A stretch of 64,000 nt of DNA from an uncultured Gammaproteobacteria bacterium (GTDB lineage: Bacteria > Patescibacteriota > Patescibacteriia > SG8-24). The DNA lies in contig CAZBFO010000002.1 of the NCBI GenBank assembly GCA_964491475.1, positions 144,501-208,500 on the forward strand, read 5' to 3'. Positions 1,799 through 24,626 of the stretch are shown in pieces (positions within the stretch are counted from its first letter, which is position 1; each line of letters begins with the position of its first letter). The translations under genes and the position numbers were made by a program. A model generated the notes under the pieces. The model saw nothing but the letters and a program-made list of their open reading frames with translations. It did not search any database and had not been told where the DNA came from.

Positions 1799-1812
1799 AC
1801 CCTTGCCCTGCA

Positions 1813-1847
1813 AAACGCCGCCTTTCCACAGGCGGCGTTTTTGCTTT
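1813..1847 (+). terminator. rho-independent terminator
   Basis: aaacgccgcc-tttccaca-ggcggcgttt hairpin followed by a T-tract. Confidence 0.7.
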
Positions 1848-1899
1848 GATTTTGCTTAAAAATCGGACTGGATAACTGCCTTCTTCGGCCCCTTGATTC

Positions 1900-4752: not shown

Positions 4753-4760
4753 CACTTCCT

Positions 4761-6062
4761 ATGGAAGAGGCGCAACAGGCGACAACTGAAACGGCGGCCG
4801 AGGCTCCCGCTAAATCGCCAGAAGGGCAGGTCATCGCGCCGGTCGCAGAGAACGACGATGCGGGCGGCGGACCCGAAGTCGGCGTTTTGGTGCGCATCAA
4901 AAGCCTGCCCCAGGCGGTCTTCGATTATCTGATGTCAGACGACCTGGTGAAGCTGCATCAGACCGTCTATGACCAGCACGGCCTCAAGCCCGAGGAGCGC
5001 GATGCCGTCTATTACGCCGAACTGCAGACGTTCCTCGGCGAGCTCGGCCTCAAGGAATTTCCGGGGGAATTGTGGAGCCGCCTCGGTTGGGAAGAATCGC
5101 GCGACGAGCAGGTCATCGCCTTGGCCGTGGACGTGCTCGGTTTCGTCTTCTTGCCGGCGCAGGCGCATCTCGGAGACGTTGCCGGCGTCATCGCCGAGCT
5201 CGGCGGGGACATCAAGGCGTTTCCCGAAAAGCAGCTTGAGGTACGCAGGATCACTTACGCGCAGGGATCGGCGGAAATCGCCGAAGTGGCCGATTTGGGC
5301 GAAGAGGACGACGGCACTATGCGCAAGCGCCTGGCGTTCATCATCGAGTCGCGGTTGCGCCACGTGCGCACCAACGTCGCCGTAAAGGAGATGCTGATGC
5401 GCGGCAAGAAGACCGGCGGCATGGACCTTTCGGAGCAGGAAGCCGACAAGATCATCGAACTCCTGGAGTCGAAGACCCGCATGACCTCGTACGCCGACGT
5501 CCTCGGAGAAGAGCCTGCCGCGGCTGCCGGGGGAGAAGAGCCGGAATATGCCGCAGAGGACATCAAGAGGATTTTTGCAGGTACTGCCGAAGAACAGGAG
5601 GCGCTCGGGAAGCGCATAGGACGTTTCGCCTCGGTCACTGCCGGCGACCCGTCCAAGATGCGCGACGCCTTTTACCAGGTGATCGCGCCTGCCGACGGCA
5701 GTCCCATCGATCCGCCGTACGTCGTCGCCGGACTCATTTCGATGGCTGACGGCGACAAGATTTCCGACGCTTTGGCCGAAGACGAGCGCTATCGCACGTT
5801 CGTCCGCGAATACCTCAAGGGAAAAAAACGCGACGCCGAAGCAGAGGCCTTCGATGCAGATCCGACCGATGCCAAGTACATGAACATCCTGCTGCAGTAC
5901 CTCTTGCGGGGCATCGCAGGCTACGACGATGCCGATTCCGCCCGCCTCGGGCTGCACGTCATCAACCTGCTCAACAAGCAGGGGTACAATCGCTACGCCG
6001 AGCTGGTGGCCTTCGACATGAAAGAAGGCGAATTCCGATGGAAAGACCTTGTTGAACCATAG
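4761..6062 (+). CDS. hypothetical acidic protein (T4SS operon member)
   Basis: 433-aa acidic ORF, 9 nt after the VirB6-like gene and in the same operon. No recognisable motif. Confidence 0.5.
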   Translation: MEEAQQATTETAAEAPAKSPEGQVIAPVAENDDAGGGPEVGVLVRIKSLPQAVFDYLMSDDLVKLHQTVYDQHGLKPEERDAVYYAELQTFLGELGLKEFPGELWSRLGWEESRDEQVIALAVDVLGFVFLPAQAHLGDVAGVIAELGGDIKAFPEKQLEVRRITYAQGSAEIAEVADLGEEDDGTMRKRLAFIIESRLRHVRTNVAVKEMLMRGKKTGGMDLSEQEADKIIELLESKTRMTSYADVLGEEPAAAAGGEEPEYAAEDIKRIFAGTAEEQEALGKRIGRFASVTAGDPSKMRDAFYQVIAPADGSPIDPPYVVAGLISMADGDKISDALAEDERYRTFVREYLKGKKRDAEAEAFDADPTDAKYMNILLQYLLRGIAGYDDADSARLGLHVINLLNKQGYNRYAELVAFDMKEGEFRWKDLVEP

Positions 6063-6077
6063 CTGAACGAGTCCCGT

Positions 6078-7376
6078 ATGGCCGATACCACCTCCCTTCC
6101 CGGTTCCGACGCAACGTCGGACGCAGCCAAAAAAGCGCCTTCGAACGACGGGGGATTGACCAAGGAGTCTTGGCTCGACCTGTCCGACGCCTCCATTCCC
6201 GTGATCGACCCGCAGGGCAAACAGGTGGTCCTGAAAGGGGCCGGCTTTGTCGATCCTGCTCCTGCGCCAGTCCCGGCGGTTCCCGCTGCCTCGCAGCCGG
6301 CTGTCGCCAAGGCGGCACCCCCTCCTCCGAACCTTCCTTTGGTGGAAGAAAAACCGATTACGGCCGAGCCGGTCGGCGCGCAACCTGTCACCTCGCTGGC
6401 CGATCTCGGACTCGACGACGCCGCGGACGTCGCCGAAATCAAGAAGATCGAACAGAAGACGGCGGTGAAGTCCGTGGACGCTTCCGTAAAGAAGGACTTG
6501 CCGCTGCTGGAGTCGATGGTCGAGGATGCCGTCAACGGCACGGACGCCAACGTCACCGACGTCAGCATGCGCCGCCGTTTCAGCCTTCTCATTTCGCTCT
6601 TCTTCCGCGACTTGCGCGACGGCCTGGAAACGAAGTCCAAGTTCACCATGCCGGTACAGAGCGGGGGGATGGGCTTCGACGACGCTACCGCCGATCGGGT
6701 GCTGGAAGAGCTGGTAAGGCGCAACAAGTCGTACAAGGAGGCGCTCACCGGCAAGGCGGCAGACGACAAGTCGCAATACGTCGCCAAGCGCACCGAGACC
6801 GTCCTCAACCTGCAGGAGAACATCGACCGCGCCGAGCAGGAACGCGGCGACAAGGCGTTCGAGGGCCTGATGCAGCGCGTCGGCACGCGTGCCGAGGAGC
6901 AGCCGGCGCCGCGGCCCGCAGAACCAAGGTCGATTCCGGTCATCGGTCTCGACAAGAAACCGACGCCTTCGGCCGCGCCGCAAGTCGTCGGCACCGCCGG
7001 GATCGGCTCCGTCAACCGTCCCACCGTCTCGGATGTCGCCTATGCGCCGAAGCTCACCGGGCCGGTGGAAGAGCTTCGCCAGCTGACCCTCAAGGACTTC
7101 CGCCGCCTTTCCCGCGACCCCAAGGAGGCTACGCTCAAGATCAAGGACAAGATCGACCTTCTCGAGGAGCAGTCTTTCGAAGTGAAAACCGCTGGCGTCA
7201 GCGCCTGGCACGATTGCGAGGTGAACCGGCTGTACTTGGAAATCCTCCGGCAAAGCTTGGACGGAAAACCGATCATGGACGTGATAGCCGATCTCGACCA
7301 GAAGGCATTGCCTGCGCTCACCAAAGACGAATTCGACGTGATCATGCAGTTGAATCAAAAATTGCGCTTTGGTTAG
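6078..7376 (+). CDS. hypothetical protein with Pro/Ala-rich low-complexity N-half (T4SS operon member)
   Basis: 432-aa ORF with a PAPAPVPAVPAASQPAVAKAAPPPP tract and a C-terminal globular region. Tightly spaced in the operon. Confidence 0.5.
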   Translation: MADTTSLPGSDATSDAAKKAPSNDGGLTKESWLDLSDASIPVIDPQGKQVVLKGAGFVDPAPAPVPAVPAASQPAVAKAAPPPPNLPLVEEKPITAEPVGAQPVTSLADLGLDDAADVAEIKKIEQKTAVKSVDASVKKDLPLLESMVEDAVNGTDANVTDVSMRRRFSLLISLFFRDLRDGLETKSKFTMPVQSGGMGFDDATADRVLEELVRRNKSYKEALTGKAADDKSQYVAKRTETVLNLQENIDRAEQERGDKAFEGLMQRVGTRAEEQPAPRPAEPRSIPVIGLDKKPTPSAAPQVVGTAGIGSVNRPTVSDVAYAPKLTGPVEELRQLTLKDFRRLSRDPKEATLKIKDKIDLLEEQSFEVKTAGVSAWHDCEVNRLYLEILRQSLDGKPIMDVIADLDQKALPALTKDEFDVIMQLNQKLRFG

Positions 7377-7877: not shown

Positions 7878-8591
7878 ATGGCGCAGGAACAAGAGATGCA
7901 ATCAAGGAAGTTGGCCGGCGGCAAGCCGGGTCCCGCGACCCAGCGATTCTTGGATATCGCCGAAGTCAAGGAGGACGTGATGGTCATGAAGGACGGCACC
8001 ATGCGCGTGGTGCTGATCGTTGCCAGCATCAACTTCGCGCTCAAGTCCGAGGACGAGCAGAACGCCATCATCTCCGCCTACGTGCAGTTCCTCAATGCGC
8101 TGGAGTTCCCGCTGCAGGTGGTGATTCAGTCGCGCCGCCTGAACATCGACAAGTACATCGAGCGCCTCAAGGAGTCGGAAAAGAACCAGACCAACGAGCT
8201 GCTCCGCATGCAGATCAAGGACTACCGCAACTTCGTGCAGGAACTGGTCACGCTCGGCCAGATCATGCAGAAGCAGTTCTTCGTGGTCGTCCCGTACAAC
8301 CCGTTGTCCGACAAGCGCAAGGGCTTTTTCTCGCGCCTGTCCGAGGCTTTTTCGCCGACGCTGTCCGTCCGCCTGGCAGAGGACCGTTTCCGCCAGCGCA
8401 AGAACGACCTGCAGACCCGCGTCGACCACATCATCAGCAACTTGGGCAGCATGGGCCTCAAGGCCGTCCAGCTCGACACGCAGAGCCTGATCGAGCTGTT
8501 CTACCGCGTCTACAATCCGGAAACCTACGACACGCAGAAGATGCAGGACTCTTCCAAGCTCCGCGTCACCGATGAAATCACGACCGTCTAA
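7878..8591 (+). CDS. VirB4 N-terminal domain encoded as a separate ORF (split VirB4)
   Basis: MVMKDGTMRVVLIVASINFALKSEDEQNAIISAYVQFLNALEFPLQVVIQ matches the N-terminal KDG...(L/I)N(F/Y)...SEEEQ...F...LN module of Gram-positive VirB4s (ConE/TcpF/PrgJ type). It ends 5 nt before the ATPase ORF, which lies in the -1 frame. Confidence 0.5.
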   Translation: MAQEQEMQSRKLAGGKPGPATQRFLDIAEVKEDVMVMKDGTMRVVLIVASINFALKSEDEQNAIISAYVQFLNALEFPLQVVIQSRRLNIDKYIERLKESEKNQTNELLRMQIKDYRNFVQELVTLGQIMQKQFFVVVPYNPLSDKRKGFFSRLSEAFSPTLSVRLAEDRFRQRKNDLQTRVDHIISNLGSMGLKAVQLDTQSLIELFYRVYNPETYDTQKMQDSSKLRVTDEITTV

Positions 8592-8596
8592 CGCCT

Positions 8597-10507
8597 ATGG
8601 CATTCACCCCCGGACAATTCGCTCCCGGCACCGGTCCGACGCCGCAACAGCAGCGGAAGGCGGCTGCGGCGCCGACGAAGAAGGCGCAGGAATCCGAGCA
8701 GATCGCCAAGGAGAGGGAAGTGCTCGAAGAGGAGCGCATCTACCGCCGCGGCGTCATCTCCATCAAGGACGTCATCGCGCCGGCCGGCATGAAGATCGAG
8801 CCGACGTACCTGGTGCTCAACGAGACCTTCGTTCGCACCATCTTCGTCGTGACTTATCCGCGTTACATCTCTCTGGGATGGTTTGCTCCCATCGTGAACA
8901 TGAACCACCCGCTCGACGTGGCGATGTTCTTCTATCCGGTGAAGCCGGAAGTCATTCTCAAGCAGCTCAAGAAGAAGGTCGGTACGCTCGAAGCGCAGAT
9001 CATGTCGGACTCGGAGAAAGGCGCGCCCCGCGACCCCATCCGCGAAACCGCCCTCCGCGACATCGAAGAATTGCGTGACTCGCTTTCGCAGGGAACCGAG
9101 CACTTTTTCCAGTTCGCGCTCTACGTCACCGTCTACGCCAAGGACAAGAAGGAGCTCGACAAGCAGACCGAGGACGTCGAAGCGCTCTTCGGCGGCAAGC
9201 TCATCTATACCAAGCGCGTCTTCTATCAGTCGGAGCAAGGCTTCAACTCGACCATGCCGCAGGGCAACGACGAGCTGATGATCACCTTCAACATGAACTC
9301 GTCGCCGGTGGCGTCGTCGTTCCCGTTCATCTCGGCCGACCTGACCACCGACAACGGCATCCTTTTCGGCGTCAACCGCCACAACAACAGCCTGGTCCTG
9401 TTCGACCGCTTCTCGATGCAGAATGCCAACTACATCGTGTTCGCCACTTCCGGCGCAGGCAAGTCGTACTGCGTCAAGCTCGAGATTCTGCGATCGCTGA
9501 TGGTCGGCACCGAGGTCATCGTCATCGACCCGGAAATGGAATACAAGCACCTGTCCGACGCGGTCGGCGGCACCTACATCAACCTGTCGCTGGCTTCCGA
9601 CGCCAAGATCAACCCGTTCGACTTGCCGCGCGCGGTCGGCGAGCAGATCACCACCGAGGACATCATCCGCAGCGCCGTCATCACCGTGAAGGGCCTTTTG
9701 CGCATCATGTTGGGCGGCAACGTCTCGCCGCAGGACGACTCCACCCTCGACCGCGCCCTGCTCGAAACCTACGCCAAGAAAGACATCACCCCCGACGCCG
9801 ACCTGGCCAAAGTGGAACCGCCGATCATGCAGGACTTCGTGGAAGTGCTCGAGGGCATGGAAGGCACCAAGGACATCGTCATCCGCCTCAAGAAGTTCAC
9901 CGAGGGCACCTTCGCCGGCCTGTTCAACTCGCCGACGACCATCACCATGCGCAACGTGCTGGTGACCTTCTCGGTCCGCGACCTCGAGGACGAACTGCGC
10001 CCGCTGGCCATCTACGCCATCGTCAACTACATCTGGAACGTCGTCCGCTCGGAGCGCAAGAAGCGCATCCTGGTCATCGACGAAGCCTGGTGGCTCATGC
10101 AGAACGAGGACTCCGCCAAGTTCATCTTCGCGCTGGTCAAGCGCTGCCGCAAATACTACCTGGGCGTCACCACCATCACGCAGGACGTCAACGACTTCCT
10201 CCGCAGCCCTTATGGCCAGGCCATCGTCACCAACTCGGCCATGCAGATGCTGCTCAAGCAGTCGCCGGCGGCCGTCGACAACATTGCCAAGACCTTCCTG
10301 CTGACGGAAGGGGAGAAGTTCCTGCTCTTGGAGTGCGGCGTCGGCGAAGGCATCTTCTTCGCCGGCAACAAGCATGCGGCCATCAAGGTCGTGGCCTCGT
10401 ACGCCGAAGACCAGGTCGTGACCACGAACCCGCAGCAGCTGCTCGAGATCGAGCAGGCCAAGAAGGATTTCCAGAAGGCCCAGGAAGAGGAGGCCAACAA
10501 GAAGTAG
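8597..10507 (+). CDS. virB4: VirB4/TrbE/CagE-family T4SS ATPase
   Basis: Middle-domain signature TYLVLNETFVRTIFVVTYPRYISLGWFAPIV. Walker A is FATSGAGKSY and Walker B/DEAW box is RILVIDEAWWLM. The C-terminal region reads TTITQDVNDF. Confidence 0.85.
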   Translation: MAFTPGQFAPGTGPTPQQQRKAAAAPTKKAQESEQIAKEREVLEEERIYRRGVISIKDVIAPAGMKIEPTYLVLNETFVRTIFVVTYPRYISLGWFAPIVNMNHPLDVAMFFYPVKPEVILKQLKKKVGTLEAQIMSDSEKGAPRDPIRETALRDIEELRDSLSQGTEHFFQFALYVTVYAKDKKELDKQTEDVEALFGGKLIYTKRVFYQSEQGFNSTMPQGNDELMITFNMNSSPVASSFPFISADLTTDNGILFGVNRHNNSLVLFDRFSMQNANYIVFATSGAGKSYCVKLEILRSLMVGTEVIVIDPEMEYKHLSDAVGGTYINLSLASDAKINPFDLPRAVGEQITTEDIIRSAVITVKGLLRIMLGGNVSPQDDSTLDRALLETYAKKDITPDADLAKVEPPIMQDFVEVLEGMEGTKDIVIRLKKFTEGTFAGLFNSPTTITMRNVLVTFSVRDLEDELRPLAIYAIVNYIWNVVRSERKKRILVIDEAWWLMQNEDSAKFIFALVKRCRKYYLGVTTITQDVNDFLRSPYGQAIVTNSAMQMLLKQSPAAVDNIAKTFLLTEGEKFLLLECGVGEGIFFAGNKHAAIKVVASYAEDQVVTTNPQQLLEIEQAKKDFQKAQEEEANKK

Positions 10508-10510
10508 CCT

Positions 10511-11131
10511 ATGCAGCGCCGCACCAAGATCATCATCGCCGTCATCGTCCTCGTCTTGCTCGCGCTGATCGCGATGCTGTTCCTGCTGAAGCCTCCGGCG
10601 GCCGCTCCGGCCCCCAAGCCGACGCCCGCGCCTGCGGCCAACGTCAACGTGAACAGGCCGACGACGCAGAACACCAACAACCGGCCCGCAGGTAACGTCA
10701 ACGTCGCGGTCAGCACCAACGCGCCGCCACCCGCGCCGGCCGACGACAAGACCGGTCTCAAGAACACCGCGCGTTCGTTTGCCGAGCTGTTCGGCAGCTC
10801 CTCGACCGAAGGCAATTATCAGAACATCGTCGACGCCGAGTACTACATGACGGCCTCGGTTAAGGCCTGGGCGGAACAGTACGTCGCCGAGCAACGCGCC
10901 AAGCCGAAGACCGGCGAGTTTTCCGGCACTACCACCCGTGCCATCTTCGAACCTGACGTGCTGGCGTATGACAAGGACGCAGGCACGGCGACGGTCGTGG
11001 TGAAGACCCGCCGCATCGAGACCGGCGCCACCATCGGCGCGCAGAACGTGTACTACCAGGACCTGACCCTGAACTTCGTGAAGGCGGGGGAGGCCTGGAA
11101 GGTGAACCGCTTCACTTGGGGAGACAAGTAA
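10511..11131 (+). CDS. membrane-anchored protein with Pro-rich linker and about 120-aa C-terminal domain (VirB8-like candidate)
   Basis: N-terminal TM helix (IIIAVIVLVLLALIAMLFLL), then a PAAAPAPKPTPAPA linker, then a globular domain ending EAWKVNRFTWGD. Its position directly after VirB4, together with this architecture, fits VirB8/ConB-like bitopic components. No sequence-level proof. Confidence 0.4.
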   Translation: MQRRTKIIIAVIVLVLLALIAMLFLLKPPAAAPAPKPTPAPAANVNVNRPTTQNTNNRPAGNVNVAVSTNAPPPAPADDKTGLKNTARSFAELFGSSSTEGNYQNIVDAEYYMTASVKAWAEQYVAEQRAKPKTGEFSGTTTRAIFEPDVLAYDKDAGTATVVVKTRRIETGATIGAQNVYYQDLTLNFVKAGEAWKVNRFTWGDK

Positions 11132-11958: not shown

Positions 11959-12438
11959 TCATTGGCGGTATTCCTGCAGCACCTTGACGAAGGGATACTT
12001 CTTGGCGCTGTAGCCGTAGCCGCGGAGAAGATCTCTGGTACCGCGGTACTCCTCGTCGTAGCCCCAGTTGAAGGAGACCCGATTGGCCCACCAGTAATAG
12101 TAGAACCCTTCGGTGGTCACGAACTCCCTGTACTCGGTCGGAACGAACTGCACCAGTTTGCAGTCGTAGCCCCGTCCGGCCGAAGTGACGCAGACGCGCA
12201 TCGGGCGGGTGTCGACCTTGGCGACCTCCACCCATGGGGCCGAGACGTTCCAGCCGGGCGTGTCGAGCTTGATCTCGCCGCTGAACACGTCGCGCATGAT
12301 GCCGACGTGCCCGTAGTCGGTGTAATGGACGAAGGCCAGCCAAAACAGGGTGATGACTGACATCGTCGTGACGGCTGCGATCCGGCGCGGCGTTCCGACG
12401 AGACGTTTCGCGGCCTTGAGCGCCGACGTCCGGTTCAT
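11959..12438 (-). CDS. small membrane-anchored protein, paralogue A
   Basis: MNRTSALK start. TM helix VTTMSVITLFWLAFV, then a beta-rich domain with RPMRVCVTSAGRGYDCKLVQFVP. It is a paralogue of the upstream gene. The ATGA start/stop overlap indicates translational coupling. Confidence 0.5.
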   Translation of the reverse strand: MNRTSALKAAKRLVGTPRRIAAVTTMSVITLFWLAFVHYTDYGHVGIMRDVFSGEIKLDTPGWNVSAPWVEVAKVDTRPMRVCVTSAGRGYDCKLVQFVPTEYREFVTTEGFYYYWWANRVSFNWGYDEEYRGTRDLLRGYGYSAKKYPFVKVLQEYRQ

Positions 12439-12926
12439 TTCCGCGTGTCGTCCGCGCCGTTTTCCGGCTTCAGCTCGCGGATCACGGTCATGAAGGGATA
12501 CTCCTTGCCAGAGCCGTCGAAGGCGTAGCTGGTGAGTATCTGGGTGAGGTTGCCTCCGTACGCGTGGCCGTTGCTGTCGACGGATGAACCGCCTTTGTAA
12601 TCGCCGTTGCCGTGCCAGCTGAGGAACGTGTCGAGCCCTTGCGGGTTGAACTTCACAAGCTTGCAGTTGAGCACGCGCGAGTTGGCGTTGATGCACACCT
12701 GCATCGGGCGGAGGTCGACCGTGTAGACCTTCACCAGGATGGGCGACGTCACCACGTAACCCGGGTGAGTCAGCACGGTCACCCGTCCGGTTCTGGAGTC
12801 GAACACGTAGCCGAGCTCGTAGTTCTCGACGTGGTTGACCCAGCCGATCCGGAAGACGAGAAGTCCGAAAAGTCCGAGGAGGAACGTTCCCAGCAGGGCC
12901 GCGCCTGCCTTTTCCAATCGGTTCAT
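12435..12926 (-). CDS. small membrane-anchored protein, paralogue B
   Basis: TM helix ALLGTFLLGLFGLLVF, then a domain with RPMQVCINANSRVLNCKLVKFNP. It shares the RPM(Q/R)VC...CKLV(K/Q)F core with paralogue A. Confidence 0.55.
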   Translation of the reverse strand: MNRLEKAGAALLGTFLLGLFGLLVFRIGWVNHVENYELGYVFDSRTGRVTVLTHPGYVVTSPILVKVYTVDLRPMQVCINANSRVLNCKLVKFNPQGLDTFLSWHGNGDYKGGSSVDSNGHAYGGNLTQILTSYAFDGSGKEYPFMTVIRELKPENGADDTRK

Positions 12927-13623: not shown

Positions 13624-14205
13624 TCAGGTCTTGGCGAAGAAGTGGTGGTCGAGCTCGGGGCCCCAACGGCACTGCTGGCTTAGTTTCCCGGATTCCGGTT
13701 CGCTCACGGGCGGTACGAACGGTTTTCGTTCGCTCCAGGCCGCTTGCACCGTGGCGCCGATGTGGCCGTTGTAAGTGGCACCGTTCGCGCTGCTTGCGGA
13801 GATGACGCCGACTTCGGGGAAGGCGTCGTCCTGTCCGCAAAGCGCGGCGGCGAGGGCTGCCGCGTGGCAGCAGTCGTTGACGACGAGCGTCGGACCTTTC
13901 CGGCACAGGCCCAAAGCGTCGACGAGCCTGGCATACGGCAGCTCCAGCCAGGTGTCGGCGTCATGCTTGCCGTACGCCCAACCGTCCTCGGAGCCGTGTC
14001 CGATGTAGACGATCAGCAGCGGTTGCCGTCCCGCCAGGTAGCCCTGGTTGGCAATCAGGCCCAAGAGAAGGGAATCCGTCTTGTTCCAGGCGGATATCTG
14101 CTTCACCAGCTTGATGCCGGCGCGCACGTGGAGAAAGTATTCGAACGATTGCGCCTCTTCATGCGCCTGCAGTTCGTGACCCACGACGATGACTGCTCGT
14201 GACAT
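13624..14205 (-). CDS. clan CD (caspase/legumain-like) cysteine peptidase-domain protein
   Basis: An ordered His-Gly ... Asp-x-Cys pair (LLIVYIGHGSEDGW and TLVVNDCCHAAALAA) sits after a small beta-alpha core. This is typical of the C13/C14 catalytic dyad. There is no signal peptide. Confidence 0.4.
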   Translation of the reverse strand: MSRAVIVVGHELQAHEEAQSFEYFLHVRAGIKLVKQISAWNKTDSLLLGLIANQGYLAGRQPLLIVYIGHGSEDGWAYGKHDADTWLELPYARLVDALGLCRKGPTLVVNDCCHAAALAAALCGQDDAFPEVGVISASSANGATYNGHIGATVQAAWSERKPFVPPVSEPESGKLSQQCRWGPELDHHFFAKT

Positions 14206-14294: not shown

Positions 14295-14546
14295 TTAACG
14301 ATGTTTGCACCCGACCCAGCAGCACGGCCGGCGCCTGCCCTCGATGATTTCCGTCCAAGTCCTTTTGATTCGGTGCGCCCGCGTTTCTTCTTTTTTGGCG
14401 TCCTCGATCCAGCAGATGAATTCGTTGCGGGCGAGGGGAGTGATGTCCTCCCAGGCGGCCCTTGCTTTCGGAGATGCCAAGAGCGCCTCCCGCAGGTCCG
14501 GGGGGAGCTTGTGGACGACGCCTGCGGAGATTCTTTGCGTCTGCAT
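14295..14546 (-). CDS. YdeI/OmdA-domain protein
   Basis: PPDLREALLASPKARAAWEDITPLARNEFICWIEDAKKEETRAHRI matches the YdeI/OmpD-associated (DUF1801-like) C-terminal motif. Confidence 0.55.
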   Translation of the reverse strand: MQTQRISAGVVHKLPPDLREALLASPKARAAWEDITPLARNEFICWIEDAKKEETRAHRIKRTWTEIIEGRRRPCCWVGCKHR

Positions 14547-14577: not shown

Positions 14578-15660
14578 TTATTTTTTTATGAACTTGATGC
14601 CGAATTTTTTCGTCAGCGCCTGCTGCACGCTGTCGTTGTCCGGATTCCTGTCCGGTCCGACGAATTCGGCGAGGGCTTTCTTCTGCAGGCCGATGACCGC
14701 GGTGCACATTTCCTGATACTCCATGGTTTCCAGTCGGCCTCGCAGGTTTTCGGCTTCCTCCGTGATGGCTCCGTTGCCGACCAGTTCCGCCAGCAGCTTC
14801 GCCGTCGCGACCATGTCTTCCGCCGCGCGCGGATTCCGGCTCTTTTGCTGCATGAACGTCTTGGCGTTTTCCTGAACGACCCTGCTCATGTCCGAAACGA
14901 CGTTCGTCTGCCTGTCGATGACGATGGCACGCAGCTCGCCGGGCATGATGACGTTGGCGCCGAGAACTTCATCCTGATATGCCGTCGGATTACCCACCTT
15001 GTATTCTTCTCCCACGACCTGGCTCTTTATGCCGTGGCCGTAGCCGGTCGTAGGGTCCCTCTCGGCGTCGGTCGCGCCGAACGTCTTGATGTCAGGATTG
15101 ATCAGGTACATGACGTTGCCGGGCGGGGTGAACGTCTGTTCCGCGTATTTCGAAAGGGAGATGCTGTCGGCCTCCTGATAGCTGCCGCCCTGTTTAGTAC
15201 GCAGGCCGTTCATCTGTCGTGCCAATTTCTCGGCATCGGGATGGTCCTTACGCAGGGCATCGAACCTGTTTTTGAAGTTGTTGCTCTGTATGCCGAAACG
15301 GAGAATCTGAAAAACGTTGCCCGCCTTCGAGTAGTGCATCAGCGGCTGCTCGCGCTTGGCATCTTCCAGCGAATACTCCGGGCGCTCGGCGTTCGTCTTT
15401 TTCAGCTCCTCGAGCGCCTGCCTCGTGGTGGTGATTTCGGGCGCGGCAGGTCCCATCTCGAGCTGCTCTCGCAGCGCAGACACCTTTTCCTGCTCGTCGA
15501 CGAACCTGTCGACACGTTCGAGCATCAATCTGCGCGCTTCCCGGTATTCTTCCGTGGTTTTCGCCCGATGCAAAATCTCGCGCCGCTTTTCCTTGTCGGG
15601 CTCATTCCTGACGTCTTTCGCGAGTTCGTCGCGGTAGTGCCGCGATTCGGATTCGTTCAT
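14578..15660 (-). CDS. hypothetical protein (360 aa) in lower-GC islet
   Basis: Long ORF with coherent codon usage and no recognisable motif. GC is visibly lower than the surrounding sequence. Confidence 0.45.
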   Translation of the reverse strand: MNESESRHYRDELAKDVRNEPDKEKRREILHRAKTTEEYREARRLMLERVDRFVDEQEKVSALREQLEMGPAAPEITTTRQALEELKKTNAERPEYSLEDAKREQPLMHYSKAGNVFQILRFGIQSNNFKNRFDALRKDHPDAEKLARQMNGLRTKQGGSYQEADSISLSKYAEQTFTPPGNVMYLINPDIKTFGATDAERDPTTGYGHGIKSQVVGEEYKVGNPTAYQDEVLGANVIMPGELRAIVIDRQTNVVSDMSRVVQENAKTFMQQKSRNPRAAEDMVATAKLLAELVGNGAITEEAENLRGRLETMEYQEMCTAVIGLQKKALAEFVGPDRNPDNDSVQQALTKKFGIKFIKK

Positions 15661-15743
15661 AACCGGCGCTGTGAGGTAGTTCAGTATCCCAGACTGCTGT
15701 ACATGTTAGGGCTTTTTCAGGAAGTCCCCGAAATTTTCCGTTC

Positions 15744-16184
15744 TTATTGTGCAGGCGCAGCATCTTTTGGGTCAAACTCCACCGTCCATTCGATGCCGTA
15801 CTTGTCCCTGAACATGGCAAATGAGGTGCCCCAAGGGCTTTCATCCAATGGCATTTCAACGGTGCCTCCTTCCGAAAGACCCCTGAAGAGCTTATCGGCT
15901 TCTTCCTTCGTTTCGGCGATGATCGCTATCTTGGACCTGTTTTCGTTCTCGTTCACTCGCCCCATGCTTTCCGGAACGTCATTGGCAATCAAGACGTTTT
16001 TGCCGATAGGCAAGGCGATGCGCATGATCTTATTCGCCTCGTTCTCCGGTACCTGAAATTCGGGGCTTGAGAGGTCCTTGAAACGAAGGATCTTGGTAAA
16101 CTCTCCGCCAAATACCGATTTGTAGAAAGTAAATGCCTCTTCGGCATTTCCATTGAAGTTGATGTAGGGATTGATCGTTGCCAT
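15744..16184 (-). CDS. VOC-family protein (PhnB-like, 3-demethylubiquinone-9 3-methyltransferase-domain type)
   Basis: MATINPYINFNGNAEEAFTFYKSVFGGEF at the N-terminus, and WGTSFAMFRDKYGIEW near the C-terminus, are typical of PhnB-like VOC proteins. Confidence 0.7.
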   Translation of the reverse strand: MATINPYINFNGNAEEAFTFYKSVFGGEFTKILRFKDLSSPEFQVPENEANKIMRIALPIGKNVLIANDVPESMGRVNENENRSKIAIIAETKEEADKLFRGLSEGGTVEMPLDESPWGTSFAMFRDKYGIEWTVEFDPKDAAPAQ

Positions 16185-16313
16185 AGCGGGTTGCGGTTTC
16201 TGCCATTATCTACAAAGAAAATCCTAACTATTTCGACATTCCGGCGTTCGCTCGAAAGGTTTACTGATTGGCCGCCGTACTCCGTTACAGTCCGCCGTAT
16301 ATCGCACGGCGGA

Positions 16314-17141
16314 TTATGCGACATGCCGTTCCACCCAAACATTTGTTCCGTCATTCGTTCCGTAAAATGCTTCTTTCTTACTCAAAAGATTTTTTGCTGT
16401 TACGAATCTCTTTTGTTTTTTTGCCATCTCCCCATCAAAATTTATTTCGGTGGTGTATATGCTTGGAAATTTTCCGGAAGTCGTATCGGTAGGATTAGTA
16501 GGGTCGTAAATATAAACGTTGTCTCCTTGCCGAATAATAACGAAGCTATGCTCTTCGGAAAATTCCTCGTTTTTATTCCAAAGTACATCACCGCTGAAAT
16601 AAGTCGAAGGAACGCCTTCTCGCTGCAGGTATGCTTGAGCGAGCGCGGCGATTTCCGCACACTCGGCAGTATTCGCATTAAAAATATCGCTCAACTTAAC
16701 TTCTTTACCTTTCTCGCCATAAAGTTTTCGCCGCGCCTCCACTCTTCCAGGATTGTCAGGATATTTTTCTTCAAACTTTTTGGTAAACGCAAAAAGTGTT
16801 GCAAACAATTTTTCGTCAATTTCTATCCCTTGCGAACCCAGCCATTCTTTCAATTTTGGCAAATCATACTTACCAGCGAATTCGTGAGCTTCACCGAGAA
16901 ATTGCTTCAGATTTTCAAAATCCCCAGTAACTTTGATATCTGCCTCGGTAGAAAAAATACTTTCACCGCCAACAGGGATACGATCTCCTTCGTCGAACTT
17001 GGATATTTCAAAGCAATGTCCGAAAAGCTTTTTTATTTTTTCTACTTTCTCGGCTTCAGCTTCCGGAGTCGGAGCTTGTTCTTCTGGATTAAATTTTGGC
17101 CCGTTTTCTGTGCTCATATATTTGTTCAGTTCGCATCCCAT
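16314..17141 (-). CDS. transglutaminase-like (papain-fold) Cys-His-Asp domain protein
   Basis: NTAECAEIAALAQAYLQREGVPSTYFSG (Cys within the conserved helix) ... EEHSFVIIRQGDNVYIYDPTN (His, then Asp). This reproduces the transglutaminase-like core order and spacing. The gene is AT-rich (about 45% GC) against a 65% background. Confidence 0.5.
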   Translation of the reverse strand: MGCELNKYMSTENGPKFNPEEQAPTPEAEAEKVEKIKKLFGHCFEISKFDEGDRIPVGGESIFSTEADIKVTGDFENLKQFLGEAHEFAGKYDLPKLKEWLGSQGIEIDEKLFATLFAFTKKFEEKYPDNPGRVEARRKLYGEKGKEVKLSDIFNANTAECAEIAALAQAYLQREGVPSTYFSGDVLWNKNEEFSEEHSFVIIRQGDNVYIYDPTNPTDTTSGKFPSIYTTEINFDGEMAKKQKRFVTAKNLLSKKEAFYGTNDGTNVWVERHVA

Positions 17142-17244
17142 TGGCCCGCTACCCTAAAAATCATCAGATTTATTACTAAATTTGCTGGCGGTGTACGCGA
17201 GTTCAGTACCCTGTATGTACGGACAATGCGTCCAGGTTGACGCG

Positions 17245-17781
17245 TCAGATGTCTAAAGCGTAGACAGCTTCGTGCTCCACGTCGGCGACGGAGCTGCGGT
17301 CGTGCAGCAGATGCAGCATCCGGATGATCCCGCTGTGCGTCACGACGAGCGGCTTCTTCCAGCGGCCGCCACGCAGGCTGTCGACGAACCGCGTCAGCCG
17401 TTCCTGCACCTGCGCCGCCGATTCGCCCCCGAACTCCCGATAGTCAAACAGCTGCGCTCGGTCCTTTTCACGGATGTCCGGGCCGAGTTTGGCCTTCACG
17501 TCCTCCCACGTCAGCCCCTCCAAGGTCCCGAAATGTCGCTCACGAATGTCTTCATCTTGCACGAGCGGGAGGTTGAGCTGCTCTCGAAAGATCTCCGCCG
17601 TCTGGCACGCTCTTTTCAGCGGCGAACTCACGATGACGTCAAATGTCTCCCTGGATAGTTTGGCGAGCAGCGTCCGGGATTCGGCGATACCATCTTCGTT
17701 CAACACCGGATCGGACCACCCCGAAATCCGCTTATCGCGACCCCAGTCGGTTTTGCCGTGTCGCACGAGGACGATGCGCAT
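17245..17781 (-). CDS. histidine phosphatase family protein (phosphoglycerate mutase-like)
   Basis: RHG catalytic motif (IVLVRHGKTDW) and C-terminal VVTHSGIIR. Confidence 0.85.
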   Translation of the reverse strand: MRIVLVRHGKTDWGRDKRISGWSDPVLNEDGIAESRTLLAKLSRETFDVIVSSPLKRACQTAEIFREQLNLPLVQDEDIRERHFGTLEGLTWEDVKAKLGPDIREKDRAQLFDYREFGGESAAQVQERLTRFVDSLRGGRWKKPLVVTHSGIIRMLHLLHDRSSVADVEHEAVYALDI

Positions 17782-17865: not shown

Positions 17866-17953
17866 TGGCGGAGGGGGTGGGATTCGAACCCACGGAACCT
17901 TTCAGTTCGGCAGATTTCAAGTCTGCTGCCTTAGACCGCTCGGCCACCCCTCC
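17866..17953 (-). tRNA. tRNA-Ser (anticodon UGA)
   Basis: Reverse complement is GGAGGGGTGGCCGAGCGGTCTAAGGCAGCAGACTTGAAATCTGC...GTGGGTTCGAATCCCACCCCCTCCGCCA. Anticodon loop is CUUGAAA. It has a long variable arm, a TpsiC loop and an encoded CCA. Confidence 0.85.
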
Positions 17954-18058
17954 ACGTGTCCGTAGTGTACGGTCGGAGGCCCATTTTATCAATACTTTAG
18001 CCTTATCTTCAGCCCTTCACAAAAACGGGTCGAGCCGATAGTATGTCCGTACAAACGG

Positions 18059-18147
18059 GGAGGGCTGCGCCGAATGGTAAGGCACCAGTTTGCTAAACTG
18101 TGACTCCGCAAGGAGTCTTGTGGGTTCGAGCCCCACGTCCTCCGCCA
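18059..18147 (+). tRNA. tRNA-Ser (anticodon GCU)
   Basis: GGAGGGCTGCGCCGAATGGTAAGGCACCAGTTTGCTAAACTGTGACTCCGCAAGGAGTCTTGTGGGTTCGAGCCCCACGTCCTCCGCCA. Anticodon loop is UUGCUAA. It has a long variable arm (GACUCCGCAAGGAGUC), a TpsiC stem-loop and CCA. Confidence 0.8.
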
Positions 18148-24549: not shown

Positions 24550-24626
24550 GCGTCCGTAGCTCAGTTGGATAGAGCGCAGCCCTGCGAAGGCTGAGGTCCG
24601 ACGTTCGAATCGTCGCGGACGCACCA
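24550..24626 (+). tRNA. tRNA-Arg (anticodon read as GCG)
   Basis: GCGTCCGTAGCTCAGTTGGATAGAGCGCAGCCCTGCGAAGGCTGAGGTCCGACGTTCGAATCGTCGCGGACGCACCA shows a canonical cloverleaf with CCA. Anticodon loop is CUGCGAA. A GCG anticodon is unusual for bacteria, where ACG is typical. Confidence 0.8.

What the first reader, a model, noticed from the sequence alone, without database searches (positions are those of the whole stretch)
14578..17240. Lower-GC islet next to the tRNA-Ser pair encoding a transglutaminase-like protein, a PhnB-like VOC protein and a large hypothetical
GC falls visibly to about 45% across 15660-17240, against about 65% background. The AT-rich stretches are plain in the raw sequence. 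The islet abuts a histidine-phosphatase gene and a tRNA-Ser, and tRNAs are classic integration sites. No integrase is present.

The 275-aa protein has the Cys...His...Asp order of transglutaminase-like or papain-fold enzymes, which are often toxins or effectors. The 360-aa protein has no recognisable motif.
Basis: seen in the sequence. Interest (0 to 1): 0.55.

Follow-up and report, generated by a model that had tools for sequence, protein, structure and literature searches.

The report
Imported cysteine-enzyme gene beside tRNA-Ser
The low-GC patch is real, but it is essentially one horizontally acquired gene for an uncharacterised Cys-His-Asp enzyme that moves between ultra-small (Patescibacteria/CPR) bacteria and tends to sit next to tRNA-Ser genes. 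Its "motif-less" 360-aa neighbour is a resident ADP-ribosyltransferase-like protein whose ~50-residue N-terminal tag is shared by hundreds of otherwise unrelated proteins.

Summary
The GC dip is confirmed: 15660-17240 is 44.9% GC against 62% elsewhere (z = -5.9). It is not a three-gene island.

- **275-aa gene (16314-17141, minus strand):** clearly foreign, with GC 40.9% and GC3 0.36 (z = -4.1).
- **VOC gene:** intermediate, GC3 0.62.
- **360-aa gene:** native composition, GC3 0.77.

No integrase and no tRNA-derived repeats are present. A gene of native composition, the histidine phosphatase, lies between the tRNA and the foreign gene. DNA similarity to other genomes stops at the ORF ends (16321-17126).

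The 275-aa protein belongs to an unnamed family with invariant Cys161, His198 and Asp213 and a papain/transglutaminase/NAT-like fold. The family is 50-93% identical across Patescibacteria classes and stays AT-rich whatever the host GC. It is strikingly linked to tRNA-Ser genes: 18 of the 27 tRNAs near family members are tRNA-Ser. In the closest relative it is an Xre-HTH + enzyme cassette between relics of a serine recombinase gene.

The 360-aa protein has a weak DarT-like ADP-ribosyltransferase fold. Its ~50-aa N-terminal module occurs on 232 protein clusters, and 112 examined fall into 84 C-terminal types, with ADP-ribosyltransferases the commonest recognisable domain.

Biochemical function is inferred only. 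The most likely roles are conflict or effector enzymes.

The parts
16314..17141 (-). Horizontally acquired gene for a ~267-275-aa Cys-His-Asp (papain/transglutaminase/NAT-like) enzyme. The probable real start is Met9 at 17117. Catalytic candidates are C161, H198 and D213.
   Evidence: GC 0.409, GC3 0.362, z -4.1. There are 139 homologues at 50-93% identity, almost all from Patescibacteria. The triad is invariant. The AF2 model has pLDDT 86.5, with Cys at a helix N-terminus and His and Asp on successive strands. Foldseek hits are 3isr, TglA, NATs, TGase, TgpA, SseI and vasohibins. dN/dS against the nearest relative is 0.03.
16321..17126 (-). Extent of nucleotide similarity to foreign (low-GC Patescibacteria) DNA. 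This marks the boundaries of the imported segment.
   Evidence: blastn gives 85.1% identity over 806 nt to L002-L006 and 75% to L007/L008. Nothing matches outside the ORF.
15744..16184 (-). PhnB/YjdN-type VOC (glyoxalase/bleomycin-resistance fold) protein of 146 aa, with intermediate composition.
   Evidence: Pfam Glyoxalase 46.6 bits (cut-off 20.6) and 3-dmu-9_3-mt 37.4 bits (cut-off 24). NCBIfam YjdN scores below its cut-off. GC3 0.619, z -1.7. Homologues at 41-42% identity lie downstream of the 275-family gene in L013 and L021.
14578..15660 (-). Resident 360-aa protein with three parts: an N-terminal ~50-aa leader module (residues 1-53), a DarT-like ADP-ribosyltransferase-fold core (~95-250; invariant H109, R137, S160, near-invariant Y161, N224, E231) and a C-terminal helical domain.
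   Evidence: Native composition, GC3 0.765. 39 homologues in CPR plus a Micrarchaeota MAG. AF2 pLDDT is 87.7. The top five Foldseek PDB hits are all DarT (8baq prob 0.96, E 0.026). The module HMM hit scores 85 bits.
15502..15660 (-). Coding region of the N-terminal leader module (consensus MExFExQxYRxNLAKEIKxEPDKEKRREILxxAKxTxEYQEAR).
   Evidence: The module is shared with a subset of the 275-aa family and with a nucleotidyltransferase (P0168). A profile search finds 232 cluster representatives at E<=1e-3, nearly always at residues 1-50. 112 of them fall into 84 C-terminal clusters.
17245..17781 (-). Histidine phosphatase (His_Phos_1) gene of native composition, lying between the tRNA-Ser and the foreign gene.
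   Evidence: Pfam E 3.4e-45. GC3 0.771. No close homologue in 5.8 billion proteins at E<=1e-20.
17866..17953 (-). tRNA-Ser(UGA), on the same strand as the foreign gene and 724 nt upstream of it.
   Evidence: ARAGORN and Rfam. The family-wide tRNA-Ser linkage is shown.
18059..18147 (+). tRNA-Ser(GCU), divergent from the first tRNA-Ser.
   Evidence: ARAGORN and Rfam.
14295..14546 (-). OmdA/YdeI-type small protein (83 aa), part of the same accessory patch.
   Evidence: Pfam OmdA E 1.4e-19. A homologue lies next to the VOC homologue in L021.

Best explanation
**What the dip is.** The GC dip marks a single-gene horizontal acquisition, not a tRNA-integrated island. A ~0.8-kb ORF was imported from a low-GC member of the Patescibacteria (CPR) gene pool into a 62%-GC chromosome. 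It landed in a small accessory patch between a native histidine-phosphatase gene and a VOC gene, 0.7 kb from a tRNA-Ser pair.

**How the gene moves.** Elsewhere the gene travels as cargo. In the closest relative it is an Xre-HTH + enzyme cassette. That cassette lies between 121-nt repeats that are relics of the 5' end of a large-serine-recombinase gene, directly downstream of a tRNA-Ser. In WWE3 genomes an intact large serine recombinase lies 1.2 kb away. In the window the helper parts are gone and only the ORF remains.

**What the 275-aa protein is (inferred).** It is a thiol enzyme with a Cys161-His198-Asp213 triad. The triad spacing (37 and 15 residues) and the fold are closest to arylamine N-acyltransferases and transglutaminase-like cysteine proteases. 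It would form an acyl- or thioester-enzyme intermediate and would hydrolyse, deamidate or transfer an acyl group on a protein or small-molecule amine.

**What the 360-aa protein is.** It is long resident. It probably is (inferred) an NAD+-dependent ADP-ribosyltransferase of DarT-like fold, with H109 and E231 as candidates for the NAD-binding His and the catalytic Glu. It is fused to a ~50-aa helical N-terminal module that is shared by hundreds of proteins with unrelated C-terminal enzymatic domains.

**Overall reading.** Together with the VOC and OmdA genes, the patch looks like a set of accessory conflict enzymes (effector, toxin or resistance) typical of CPR bacteria.

**Shown:** composition, boundaries, family distribution, conserved triad, tRNA-Ser linkage, cassette repeats and module sharing.
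**Inferred:** enzymatic activities, targets, the role of the module, and CPR identity of the host.
For: **Composition.** The 275-aa gene has GC3 0.362 against a genome mean of 0.79 (z -4.1). The 360-aa gene is at z -0.2 and the VOC gene at z -1.7.

**Boundaries.** 85% nucleotide identity to L002 is confined to 16321-17126.

**Junctions are real.** An independent Logan contig, L001, is 100% identical over its aligned part (window 15957-17400), which spans HisPhos, the 275-aa gene and the start of VOC. By its length it should continue to about 17894, up to the tRNA-Ser.

**Family distribution.** 19 genome loci were found, nearly all Kaiser-, Saccharibacteria, Magasanik-, Minisyncoccia, Kerfeld-, Levyi-, Zambryskibacteria or WWE3. 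Identity is 76-85% across classes. The gene's GC is 30-45% whatever the flank GC (31-57%).

**Selection and timing.** Against the nearest relative dS is 1.19, dN 0.036 and omega 0.03. There is no AT->GC drift (39 against 32 sites), so residence in the GC-rich host is short and the gene is under strong purifying selection.

**tRNA-Ser linkage.** Of 24 evaluable lineages, 8 have a tRNA-Ser within 1 kb and 12 within 5 kb. The anticodons are gct, tga, cga and gga. 18 of 27 nearby tRNAs are tRNA-Ser, where about 10% would be expected. Flanking protein genes are not syntenic.

**Cassette and recombinase relics.**
- L002 has a 121-nt repeat in three copies, each followed by an Xre-HTH gene plus cargo.
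- The repeat encodes residues ~28-68 of a serine recombinase N-terminus.
- Its first 26 nt follow the stop codon in four further lineages.
- An intact Resolvase + Recombinase + Zn_ribbon protein is present in L026.

**Fold of the 275-aa protein.** pLDDT is 86.5. Cys lies at the N-terminus of helix 161-174, His in strand 196-205 and Asp just after strand 208-212. Foldseek hits are listed. 17 of 27 members give sub-threshold NAT hits, 6 give Tox-PLDMTX and 6 give Transglut_core.

**The 360-aa protein.** DarT takes the top five Foldseek hits. The model has a beta core with H109 in its first strand and E231 opening a later strand. These match the DarT features described in PMC11543638.

**The module.**
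Against: - No donor and no close relative of the host genome is available. The direction and timing of transfer therefore rest on composition alone.
- The window keeps no HTH gene, repeat or recombinase relic, so the insertion mechanism here is not shown.
- Partial synteny with L013 (tRNA-Ser(tga), then the family gene, then a VOC gene) could mean the locus is old and only the allele is new.
- Structural matches are weak: TM about 0.3 and E 9e-4 for the 275-aa protein, and E 0.026 for the 360-aa protein.
- No Pfam or PADLOC model reaches threshold.
- A profile-profile comparison of the 360-aa core with the module-bearing ART cluster found nothing.
- No immunity or antitoxin gene is evident next to either enzyme, which weakens a classical toxin reading.
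- Host taxonomy is inferred, not demonstrated.
Confidence: 0.65

Rival explanations
1. This is a classical genomic island of three genes, integrated site-specifically at the tRNA-Ser, whose integrase has since been lost.
For: The region is close to two tRNA-Ser genes. The composition dip is real. The family is linked to tRNA-Ser in other genomes, and recombinase relics exist in L002 and L026.
Against: - The 360-aa gene has native codon usage.
- A native HisPhos gene lies between the tRNA and the low-GC gene.
- No repeat of the tRNA 3' end of 10 nt or more flanks the region.
- Foreign similarity is limited to one ORF.
- No recombinase fragment or 121-nt repeat is present in the window.
Confidence: 0.08
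2. The locus tRNA-Ser / Cys-His-Asp gene / VOC is ancestral in this lineage. The low GC would reflect replacement of a resident copy by a foreign AT-rich allele through recombination within or beside the conserved gene, rather than a new insertion.
For: L013 (Magasanikbacteria) has tRNA-Ser(tga), then the family gene 164 nt downstream, a kinase gene, and then a VOC homologue. L021 has the family gene followed by OmdA and VOC homologues. This explains why the imported DNA is exactly ORF-sized and why VOC has intermediate, older-looking composition.
Against: A GC-rich resident allele and an AT-rich incoming allele would share too little DNA identity for efficient homologous exchange. Flanking protein genes are otherwise not syntenic. 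VOC linkage is seen in only 3 of about 40 lineages.
Confidence: 0.2
3. The 275-aa enzyme is not a toxin or effector. It would be a NAT-like N-acyltransferase or detoxification enzyme that spreads like a resistance gene, and the patch (VOC, OmdA/YdeI, YecM) would be a small-molecule resistance cluster.
For: - The best sequence-level signal is to arylamine N-acetyltransferase (17 of 27 members, best E 4e-5).
- The triad spacing of 37 and 15 residues matches my recollection of about 38 and 15 for Salmonella NAT (Cys69, His107, Asp122); this was not checked with the tools here.
- Many Foldseek hits are NATs or amide synthases.
- The neighbours are VOC, OmdA and YecM.
- The gene usually stands alone, with no immunity partner.
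- Another module-bearing protein has an aminoglycoside-nucleotidyltransferase-type domain (P0168).
Against: No member passes the NAT gathering threshold. TM scores are about 0.3. The N-terminal half (residues 30-155) is unlike NAT domain I. Some members hit the Tox-PLDMTX toxin family. Some members are Xre-controlled cassettes sitting among restriction/TA-like cassettes.
Confidence: 0.3
4. The low-GC segment is an assembly or binning chimera that joins a low-GC CPR read set to a high-GC contig.
For: The source is metagenome-derived. There is an extreme 20-point GC step at the gene boundaries.
Against: An independently assembled Logan contig (L001, 1938 nt) reproduces both junctions at 100% identity. 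The gene differs by 15% in DNA from every other known copy, so it is not a mis-joined known sequence. The flanking intergenic regions have intermediate composition.
Confidence: 0.03

Closest known systems
Arylamine N-acetyltransferases (Pfam PF00797) and transglutaminase-like cysteine proteases (PF01841; e.g. PDB 3isr, TgpA, vasohibins), all in the papain-like Cys-His-Asp superfamily. This group also includes the toxin domain Tox-PLDMTX (PF15645).
   Same: The order is Cys...His...Asp. Cys sits at a helix N-terminus and His and Asp on consecutive strands. The spacing is 37 and 15 residues. There are weak but consistent Pfam and Foldseek hits.
   Different: No model reaches threshold. TM is about 0.3. 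The family has its own helical N-terminal half. It is restricted almost entirely to Patescibacteria, is extraordinarily conserved (50-93% identity), and is linked to tRNA-Ser. Substrate and chemistry are unknown.
DarT, the DNA ADP-ribosyltransferase toxin of DarTG toxin-antitoxin systems.
   Same: The predicted fold of the 360-aa core is closest to DarT1/DarT2. An invariant His lies in the first strand, followed by an N-x-x-x-I-L-x-x-G helix. Invariant Arg and Ser-Tyr are present, and an invariant Glu opens a late strand, as in the H-Y-E layout.
   Different: No DarT HMM hit was found in Pfam or PADLOC. No DarG macrodomain or NADAR partner lies next to it, either here or in three other genomes. 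The protein has an extra N-terminal module and a ~100-aa C-terminal helical domain. The gene sits among housekeeping genes.
Polymorphic toxin or effector families with a constant N-terminal trafficking domain and variable C-terminal enzymatic domains (LXG, MIX, Rhs/PAAR types), and ART-PolyVal domains of polyvalent proteins.
   Same: One ~50-aa N-terminal module is fused to at least 84 unrelated C-terminal types, with ADP-ribosyltransferases the commonest recognisable domain (ART-PolyVal 14, PARP 5, DUF3990 4).
   Different: The module is much shorter than LXG or MIX and matches no Pfam or NCBIfam model. No adjacent immunity genes have been shown. No link to a secretion machine has been shown; a VirB4/TraC gene pair lies about 4-6 kb away in the window. 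Some cargo domains look metabolic (PALP, D-Ala-D-Ala ligase, MaoC).
tRNA-linked genomic islands, integron-like cassette arrays and large-serine-recombinase elements.
   Same: The family gene lies next to tRNA genes. In L002 it is one of three repeat-bounded cassettes.
   Different: No tyrosine integrase, no attC-like sites and no duplication of the tRNA 3' end are present. The repeats are fragments of a serine-recombinase coding sequence. In the window none of these parts is present.
PhnB/YjdN VOC-family metalloproteins.
   Same: The Pfam Glyoxalase and 3-dmu-9_3-mt domains span the full length of the protein, above their cut-offs.
   Different: The score is below the NCBIfam YjdN equivalog cut-off (43.8 against 122 bits). 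Function is unknown.

Membership tests
tRNA-integrated genomic island | Integrase or recombinase gene within the island. | tested here: not met
   No such domain was found in any ORF from about 7.9 to 20 kb. No recombinase fragment was found by tblastn.
tRNA-integrated genomic island | Direct repeat of the tRNA 3' end at the distal border. | tested here: not met
   The repeat finder found nothing. A search for exact matches of 10 nt or more also found nothing.
tRNA-integrated genomic island | Island starts at the tRNA and has uniformly foreign composition. | tested here: not met
   A native HisPhos gene intervenes. The 360-aa gene has GC3 z -0.2, VOC z -1.7 and only the 275-aa gene z -4.1.
Papain-like / transglutaminase-like Cys-His-Asp superfamily | Invariant Cys (at a helix N-terminus), His and Asp on successive strands, in that order. 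| tested here: met
   C161, H198 and D213 are invariant in 27 sequences. The secondary-structure placement fits.
Papain-like / transglutaminase-like Cys-His-Asp superfamily | Significant sequence-profile or structural match. | tested here: inconclusive
   All Pfam hits are below gathering (Transglut_core 13.8 bits against 23; NAT 15 bits against 22.8), although they recur across members. The best Foldseek hit is 3isr, E 9.3e-4, TM 0.28.
Arylamine N-acetyltransferase (PF00797) | Pfam gathering score, three-domain NAT fold, and use of acetyl-CoA. | tested here: not met
   The score is below the cut-off. Only the triad region (residues 161-215) aligns. Cofactor use cannot be tested here.
DarT (DarTG toxin) | ART fold with an NAD-binding His and a catalytic Glu. 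| tested here: inconclusive
   The top five Foldseek hits are DarT, but the best E is only 0.026. H109 and E231 are invariant.
DarT (DarTG toxin) | Match to the DarT sequence model. | tested here: not met
   No Pfam or PADLOC hit was found for the window protein or for 26 family members.
DarT (DarTG toxin) | Adjacent DarG macrodomain or NADAR antitoxin. | tested here: not met
   The neighbours are VOC and OmdA in the window. No macrodomain was found in L073, L075 or L076.
Polymorphic toxin/effector family | Conserved N-terminal domain fused to many unrelated C-terminal domains. | tested here: met
   232 representatives carry the module, at residues 1-50. 112 examined fall into 84 C-terminal clusters and hit 32 Pfam families.
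Polymorphic toxin/effector family | Cognate immunity gene immediately downstream, and a link to a secretion system. | tested here: inconclusive
   No conserved downstream partner was found. A VirB4/TraC-like gene pair lies about 4-6 kb away in the window, and a VirD4-like gene lies 10 kb away in L007. This is suggestive only.
Type II toxin-antitoxin (Xre antitoxin + toxin) | Small HTH gene directly upstream and overlapping or abutting. | tested here: not met
   It is absent in the window, where only 103 nt separate the gene from HisPhos. It is present in L002, L034 and L016 with a 4-nt gap.
VOC / PhnB-like | Glyoxalase/3-dmu-9_3-mt domain above the Pfam cut-off. | tested here: met
   46.6 and 37.4 bits against cut-offs of 20.6 and 24.

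The most novel reading that the evidence does not exclude
The ~50-residue N-terminal module on the 360-aa protein, and on a subset of the 275-aa family, could be the delivery or recognition tag of a previously undescribed effector repertoire of Patescibacteria. In this reading it is an address label that marks dozens of different enzymes for export into, or action on, the host bacterium. Those enzymes include ADP-ribosyltransferases, thiol enzymes, nucleotidyltransferases, methyltransferases and phosphatases. Export might use the VirB4-type machine encoded about 4-6 kb away. The tRNA-Ser-linked, serine-recombinase-derived cassette arrays would then be the platform on which such genes are exchanged between CPR lineages.
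Probability: 0.15. Interest if true: 0.85.

Novelty: new variant of a known kind. Interest (0 to 1): 0.55.

Why it matters
How ultra-small episymbiotic CPR bacteria manipulate or fight their hosts is largely unknown, and most of their genes have no annotation. This locus gives three concrete handles.

1. **A mobile thiol-enzyme family.** It is highly conserved, under strong purifying selection (omega 0.03), and crosses class boundaries within the CPR.
2. **A short N-terminal module.** It ties together at least 232 protein clusters with unrelated catalytic domains, with ADP-ribosyltransferases the commonest recognisable type. This could be used to list candidate effectors genome-wide.
3. **A recurrent insertion neighbourhood.** tRNA-Ser genes, with serine-recombinase relics and Xre-controlled cassettes, hint at a cassette-exchange mechanism not described for these organisms.

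If instead the enzymes prove to be ordinary detoxification proteins, the finding is a routine single-gene transfer.

Tried and rejected
- **Sequence search of both families against PDB chains:** nothing found.
- **Foldseek of the 360-aa model against viral structures:** nothing significant.
- **Both families in IMG/VR viral contigs:** none found, so there is no evidence of phage carriage. The module alignment was too short for that scan.
- **PADLOC defence models:** no hits.
- **Profile-profile comparison of the 360-aa core with the module-bearing ART-PolyVal-like cluster:** only the N-terminal module aligned (91.9% probability). The cores gave 0.5% probability.
- **tRNA-derived att repeats:** none of 10 nt or more beyond the gene. 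A 6-nt CCGCCA after the stop codon turned out to be the start of a recombinase-derived repeat, not a copy of the tRNA end. In the window it is part of a local GC-rich hairpin.
- **Shared 12-25-nt motif upstream of both the 275-aa and 360-aa genes (15665-15689 and 17187-17211):** 6 of 100 shuffles did as well, so it is not significant.
- **Host identification:**
  - HisPhos has no relative at E<=1e-20. I set that threshold too strictly.
  - RecG is not on record.
  - Cluster look-ups carry no names.
  - The SRA run is not mentioned in any held paper.
- **Conserved protein-coding neighbours of the 275-aa family:** essentially none, apart from VOC in 3 loci and generic ABC ATPases.
- **Literature searches for the module or for a CPR effector tag:** nothing relevant.

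Full report
**1. The observation**

The window averages 61.5% GC. The stretch 15660-17240 is 44.9% GC, the lowest of all equal-sized windows (z = -5.9).

Gene by gene the picture changes:

| Gene | GC | GC3 | z of GC3 |
|---|---|---|---|
| 275-aa (16314-17141, -) | 0.409 | 0.362 | -4.1 |
| VOC (15744-16184, -) | 0.494 | 0.619 | -1.7 |
| 360-aa (14578-15660, -) | 0.578 | 0.765 | -0.2 |
| Histidine phosphatase (17245-17781, -) | 0.611 | 0.771 | -0.2 |

The mean over 56 other ORFs is GC3 0.79. The 275-aa gene also has a CAI z of -2.8. The "islet" is therefore essentially one gene.

**2. This is not a classical tRNA island**

- No integrase or recombinase domain occurs in the neighbouring ORFs, and no recombinase fragment was found by tblastn.
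- No direct repeat of either tRNA-Ser 3' end flanks the region.
- Nucleotide similarity to any other sequence is limited to 16321-17126. It is 85% to a JGI contig (L002) and 75% to a Saccharibacteria contig (L007).
- Similarity fades about 9 nt upstream of an internal ATG (Met9). The real product is therefore probably 267 aa, like its nearest relative.
- An independently assembled Logan contig reproduces HisPhos, the 275-aa gene and VOC at 100% identity, which argues against a chimera.

**3. The 275-aa protein**

- No Pfam, NCBIfam or PADLOC model passes threshold.
- The protein has 139 homologues at 50-93% identity.
- In a scan of species-representative genomes, 19 loci were found. Nearly all are Patescibacteria: Kaiserbacteria, Saccharibacteria, Magasanikbacteria, Minisyncoccia, Kerfeldbacteria, Levyibacteriota, Zambryskibacteria and WWE3.
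- C161, H198 and D213 are invariant.
- The AF2 model (pLDDT 86.5) puts Cys161 at the N-terminus of helix 161-174, His198 in strand 196-205 and Asp213 just after strand 208-212. This is the papain/transglutaminase/NAT arrangement.
- Foldseek returns a transglutaminase-like putative cysteine protease (3isr, E 9e-4), TglA, many arylamine N-acyltransferases, TGase, TgpA, SseI and vasohibins, all at TM about 0.3.
- Among 27 family members, 17 give sub-threshold NAT hits, 6 give Tox-PLDMTX and 6 give Transglut_core.

Membership of any named family is not.

**4. Evidence for horizontal movement**

- The gene is 30-45% GC in hosts whose flanks range from 31 to 57% GC, and in most loci it is more AT-rich than its surroundings.
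- It is 76-85% identical in protein between CPR classes.
- Against the nearest known copy, dS is 1.19, dN is 0.036 and omega is 0.03. Synonymous differences show no AT->GC bias (39 against 32 sites). The gene is thus under strong purifying selection and has not sat long in a 62%-GC genome.
- Neither this family nor the 360-aa family occurs in IMG/VR viral contigs.

**5. An unexpected regularity: tRNA-Ser**

In 40 dereplicated lineages, 24 have enough flanking DNA to evaluate. Eight of those have a tRNA-Ser within 1 kb and twelve within 5 kb. Most often the tRNA is just upstream on the same strand, at 38-641 nt.

Four different anticodons are involved (gct, tga, cga, gga). Of the 27 tRNA genes in these loci, 18 are tRNA-Ser, against roughly 10% expected. 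Flanking protein-coding genes are not conserved. This therefore looks like a site preference rather than inherited synteny.

The window fits the pattern: tRNA-Ser(tga) lies 724 nt upstream on the same strand.

**6. How the gene travels elsewhere**

In L002, the closest relative, the order of features is:

1. A tRNA-Ser(gct).
2. A 73-aa ORF that is the truncated N-terminus of a serine recombinase (MKYFIYTRKST...SIEAQL...).
3. Three copies of a 121-nt repeat, which itself encodes residues ~28-68 of that recombinase.

Each repeat copy is followed by an Xre-HTH gene plus cargo. The three cargos are the Cys-His-Asp enzyme, a 112-aa protein plus a HIT protein, and an NmeDI-like restriction endonuclease.

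- The HTH + enzyme unit is shared at 74-84% DNA identity with two other lineages.
- The first 26 nt of the repeat follow the stop codon in four further lineages.
- In WWE3 genomes an intact large serine recombinase (Resolvase + Recombinase + Zn ribbon) lies 1.2 kb away.
- The window has none of these parts. It holds a bare cargo ORF.

**7. The 360-aa protein**

It is compositionally native. It has 39 homologues in CPR genomes and one Micrarchaeota MAG. In other genomes the gene is AT-rich and sits among housekeeping genes, with no constant partner.

The AF2 model (pLDDT 87.7) has three parts:

- An N-terminal three-helix segment.
- A beta core (~95-250).
- A C-terminal helical bundle.

The five best PDB matches are all DarT, but they are weak (prob 0.96 and E 0.026 for the best).

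The invariant residues are H109 in the first strand, followed by the N-x-x-x-I-L-x-x-G helix; then R137, S160, N224 and E231, with Y161 near-invariant. E231 opens a strand. This layout fits the DarT H-Y-E / Arg / catalytic-Glu arrangement described in PMC11543638.

No DarT sequence model matches, and there is no DarG or NADAR neighbour. I therefore call it DarT-like in fold only, with moderate confidence.

**8. The N-terminal module**

Residues 1-53 of the 360-aa protein follow the consensus MExFExQxYRxNLAKEIKxEPDKEKRREILxxAKxTxEYQEAR. The same module recurs on 8 of 120 members of the 275-aa family, on 19 of 38 members of the 360-aa family, and on a nucleotidyltransferase.

A profile search of 1.84 billion cluster representatives finds 232 proteins at E<=1e-3. 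The module is almost always at residues 1-50, and the proteins are 37-1681 aa long.

The 112 longer ones fall into 84 clusters by their C-terminal parts. Their Pfam hits include:

- ART-PolyVal (14), PARP (5) and DUF3990 (4).
- Methyltransferases, poly(A) polymerase-type nucleotidyltransferase and HD.
- His_Phos_1, PALP and D-Ala-D-Ala ligase.

No Pfam or NCBIfam model covers the module. In the 64-kb window only the 360-aa gene carries it.

A constant N-terminus with hypervariable enzymatic C-termini is the architecture of polymorphic effector or toxin families. The role of the module (trafficking, tethering or regulation) is inferred, not shown.

**9. Context and host**

The window is chromosomal. 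It carries RecG, RadA, a ClpB/ClpC-type ATPase, PheT and phosphomannomutase. It comes from a 386-kb NCBI contig.

About 4-6 kb from the patch lies a TraC/VirB4-type ATPase pair (7878-10507) among large ORFs with no annotation.

I infer that the host is a high-GC Patescibacteria. The grounds are the resident CPR-specific 360-aa family and the gene content. I could not demonstrate it.

**10. Verdict**

The island interpretation fails. The fold call for the 275-aa protein holds. The "motif-less" 360-aa protein is the more informative gene.

The most likely biology is an accessory patch of conflict or effector-type enzymes. One of them is a recently imported, tRNA-Ser-associated cargo gene of the CPR mobile gene pool. 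A detoxification (NAT-like) role for that enzyme is a serious alternative.

Noticed in passing
L002:9270-14000 (also L003, L004, L030): There is a cassette array downstream of tRNA-Ser(gct). A 121-nt repeat occurs three times (9582-9702, 10795-10915, 12028-12148) and is derived from the 5' coding region of a serine recombinase. Each copy is followed by an Xre-HTH gene plus a different cargo: the Cys-His-Asp enzyme, a 112-aa protein plus a HIT protein, and an NmeDI-like restriction endonuclease.
   Followed up: partly
window 45984-46880 (+), region 45000-47000: This is a second lower-GC stretch (50-52% GC). Its 298-aa ORF has GC3 0.555 (z -2.3) and no Pfam hit, so it may be another acquired gene.
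   Followed up: partly
window 7878-10507 (+) and 41-7376: A TraC-like ORF (237 aa) and a VirB4/TraG-P-loop ATPase (636 aa) follow four large ORFs (433-950 aa) with no Pfam hit. This is a type IV secretion-like cluster of native GC, about 4-6 kb from the patch. In L007 a VirD4/TrwB-like gene lies 10 kb from the 275-aa family gene.
   Followed up: partly
window 16191-17240 (+): A 349-aa open reading frame runs antisense across the whole AT-rich 275-aa gene. That is unusually long for AT-rich DNA. It is probably a by-product of the sense gene's codon choice (few TTA, CTA or TCA codons). Shorter antisense ORFs recur in 14 homologous loci.
   Followed up: no
window 15665-15689 and 17187-17211 (-): A 25-nt motif (GG(G/A)TACTGAACT...CAC(C/A)GC(G)CC) lies upstream of both the 360-aa and the 275-aa start codons, at 76% identity. 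It is not statistically significant (6 of 100 shuffles did as well), but it could be a shared promoter or leader.
   Followed up: partly
window 17866-18147 and 24550-24626; L017, L043, L059, L016, L041: The trio tRNA-Ser(tga), tRNA-Ser(gct) and tRNA-Arg(gcg) recurs within a few kb of the family gene in several CPR genomes as well as in the window. This suggests a conserved tRNA neighbourhood that acts as a hotspot.
   Followed up: partly
window 13624-14205 (-): A 193-aa protein gives weak caspase/Peptidase_C25-like hits (Pfam E 9.5e-4; NCBIfam caspase_w_EACC1 E 4.6e-3). It lies in the same accessory patch.
   Followed up: no
window 11959-12926 (-): Two overlapping tandem genes (159 and 163 aa) are paralogues at 31% identity, with no Pfam hit. 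They are flanked by a YecM (VOC-fold) gene and a phosphoribosyltransferase gene.
   Followed up: no
window 16283-16313 (-): Immediately after the stop codon of the 275-aa gene lies a GC-rich 8-bp hairpin (TCCGCCGT gcgatat ACGGCGGA) of host-like composition. It may be a terminator or the junction of the insertion.
   Followed up: no
L053:4303-4540 and L022:310-632: A short second copy of the tRNA-Ser 3' end lies between the tRNA and the family gene (13 nt ACTCCCTCCGCCA in L053, 10 nt in L022). This may be a footprint of an earlier insertion or excision at the tRNA end.
   Followed up: no
L073:5885-7083: In one genome the 360-aa family gene lies 32 nt downstream of tRNA-Leu(cag). In three of four loci examined the gene is 5-7 GC points below its flanks, so that family may also be mobile. 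The window copy, in contrast, is fully ameliorated.
   Followed up: partly
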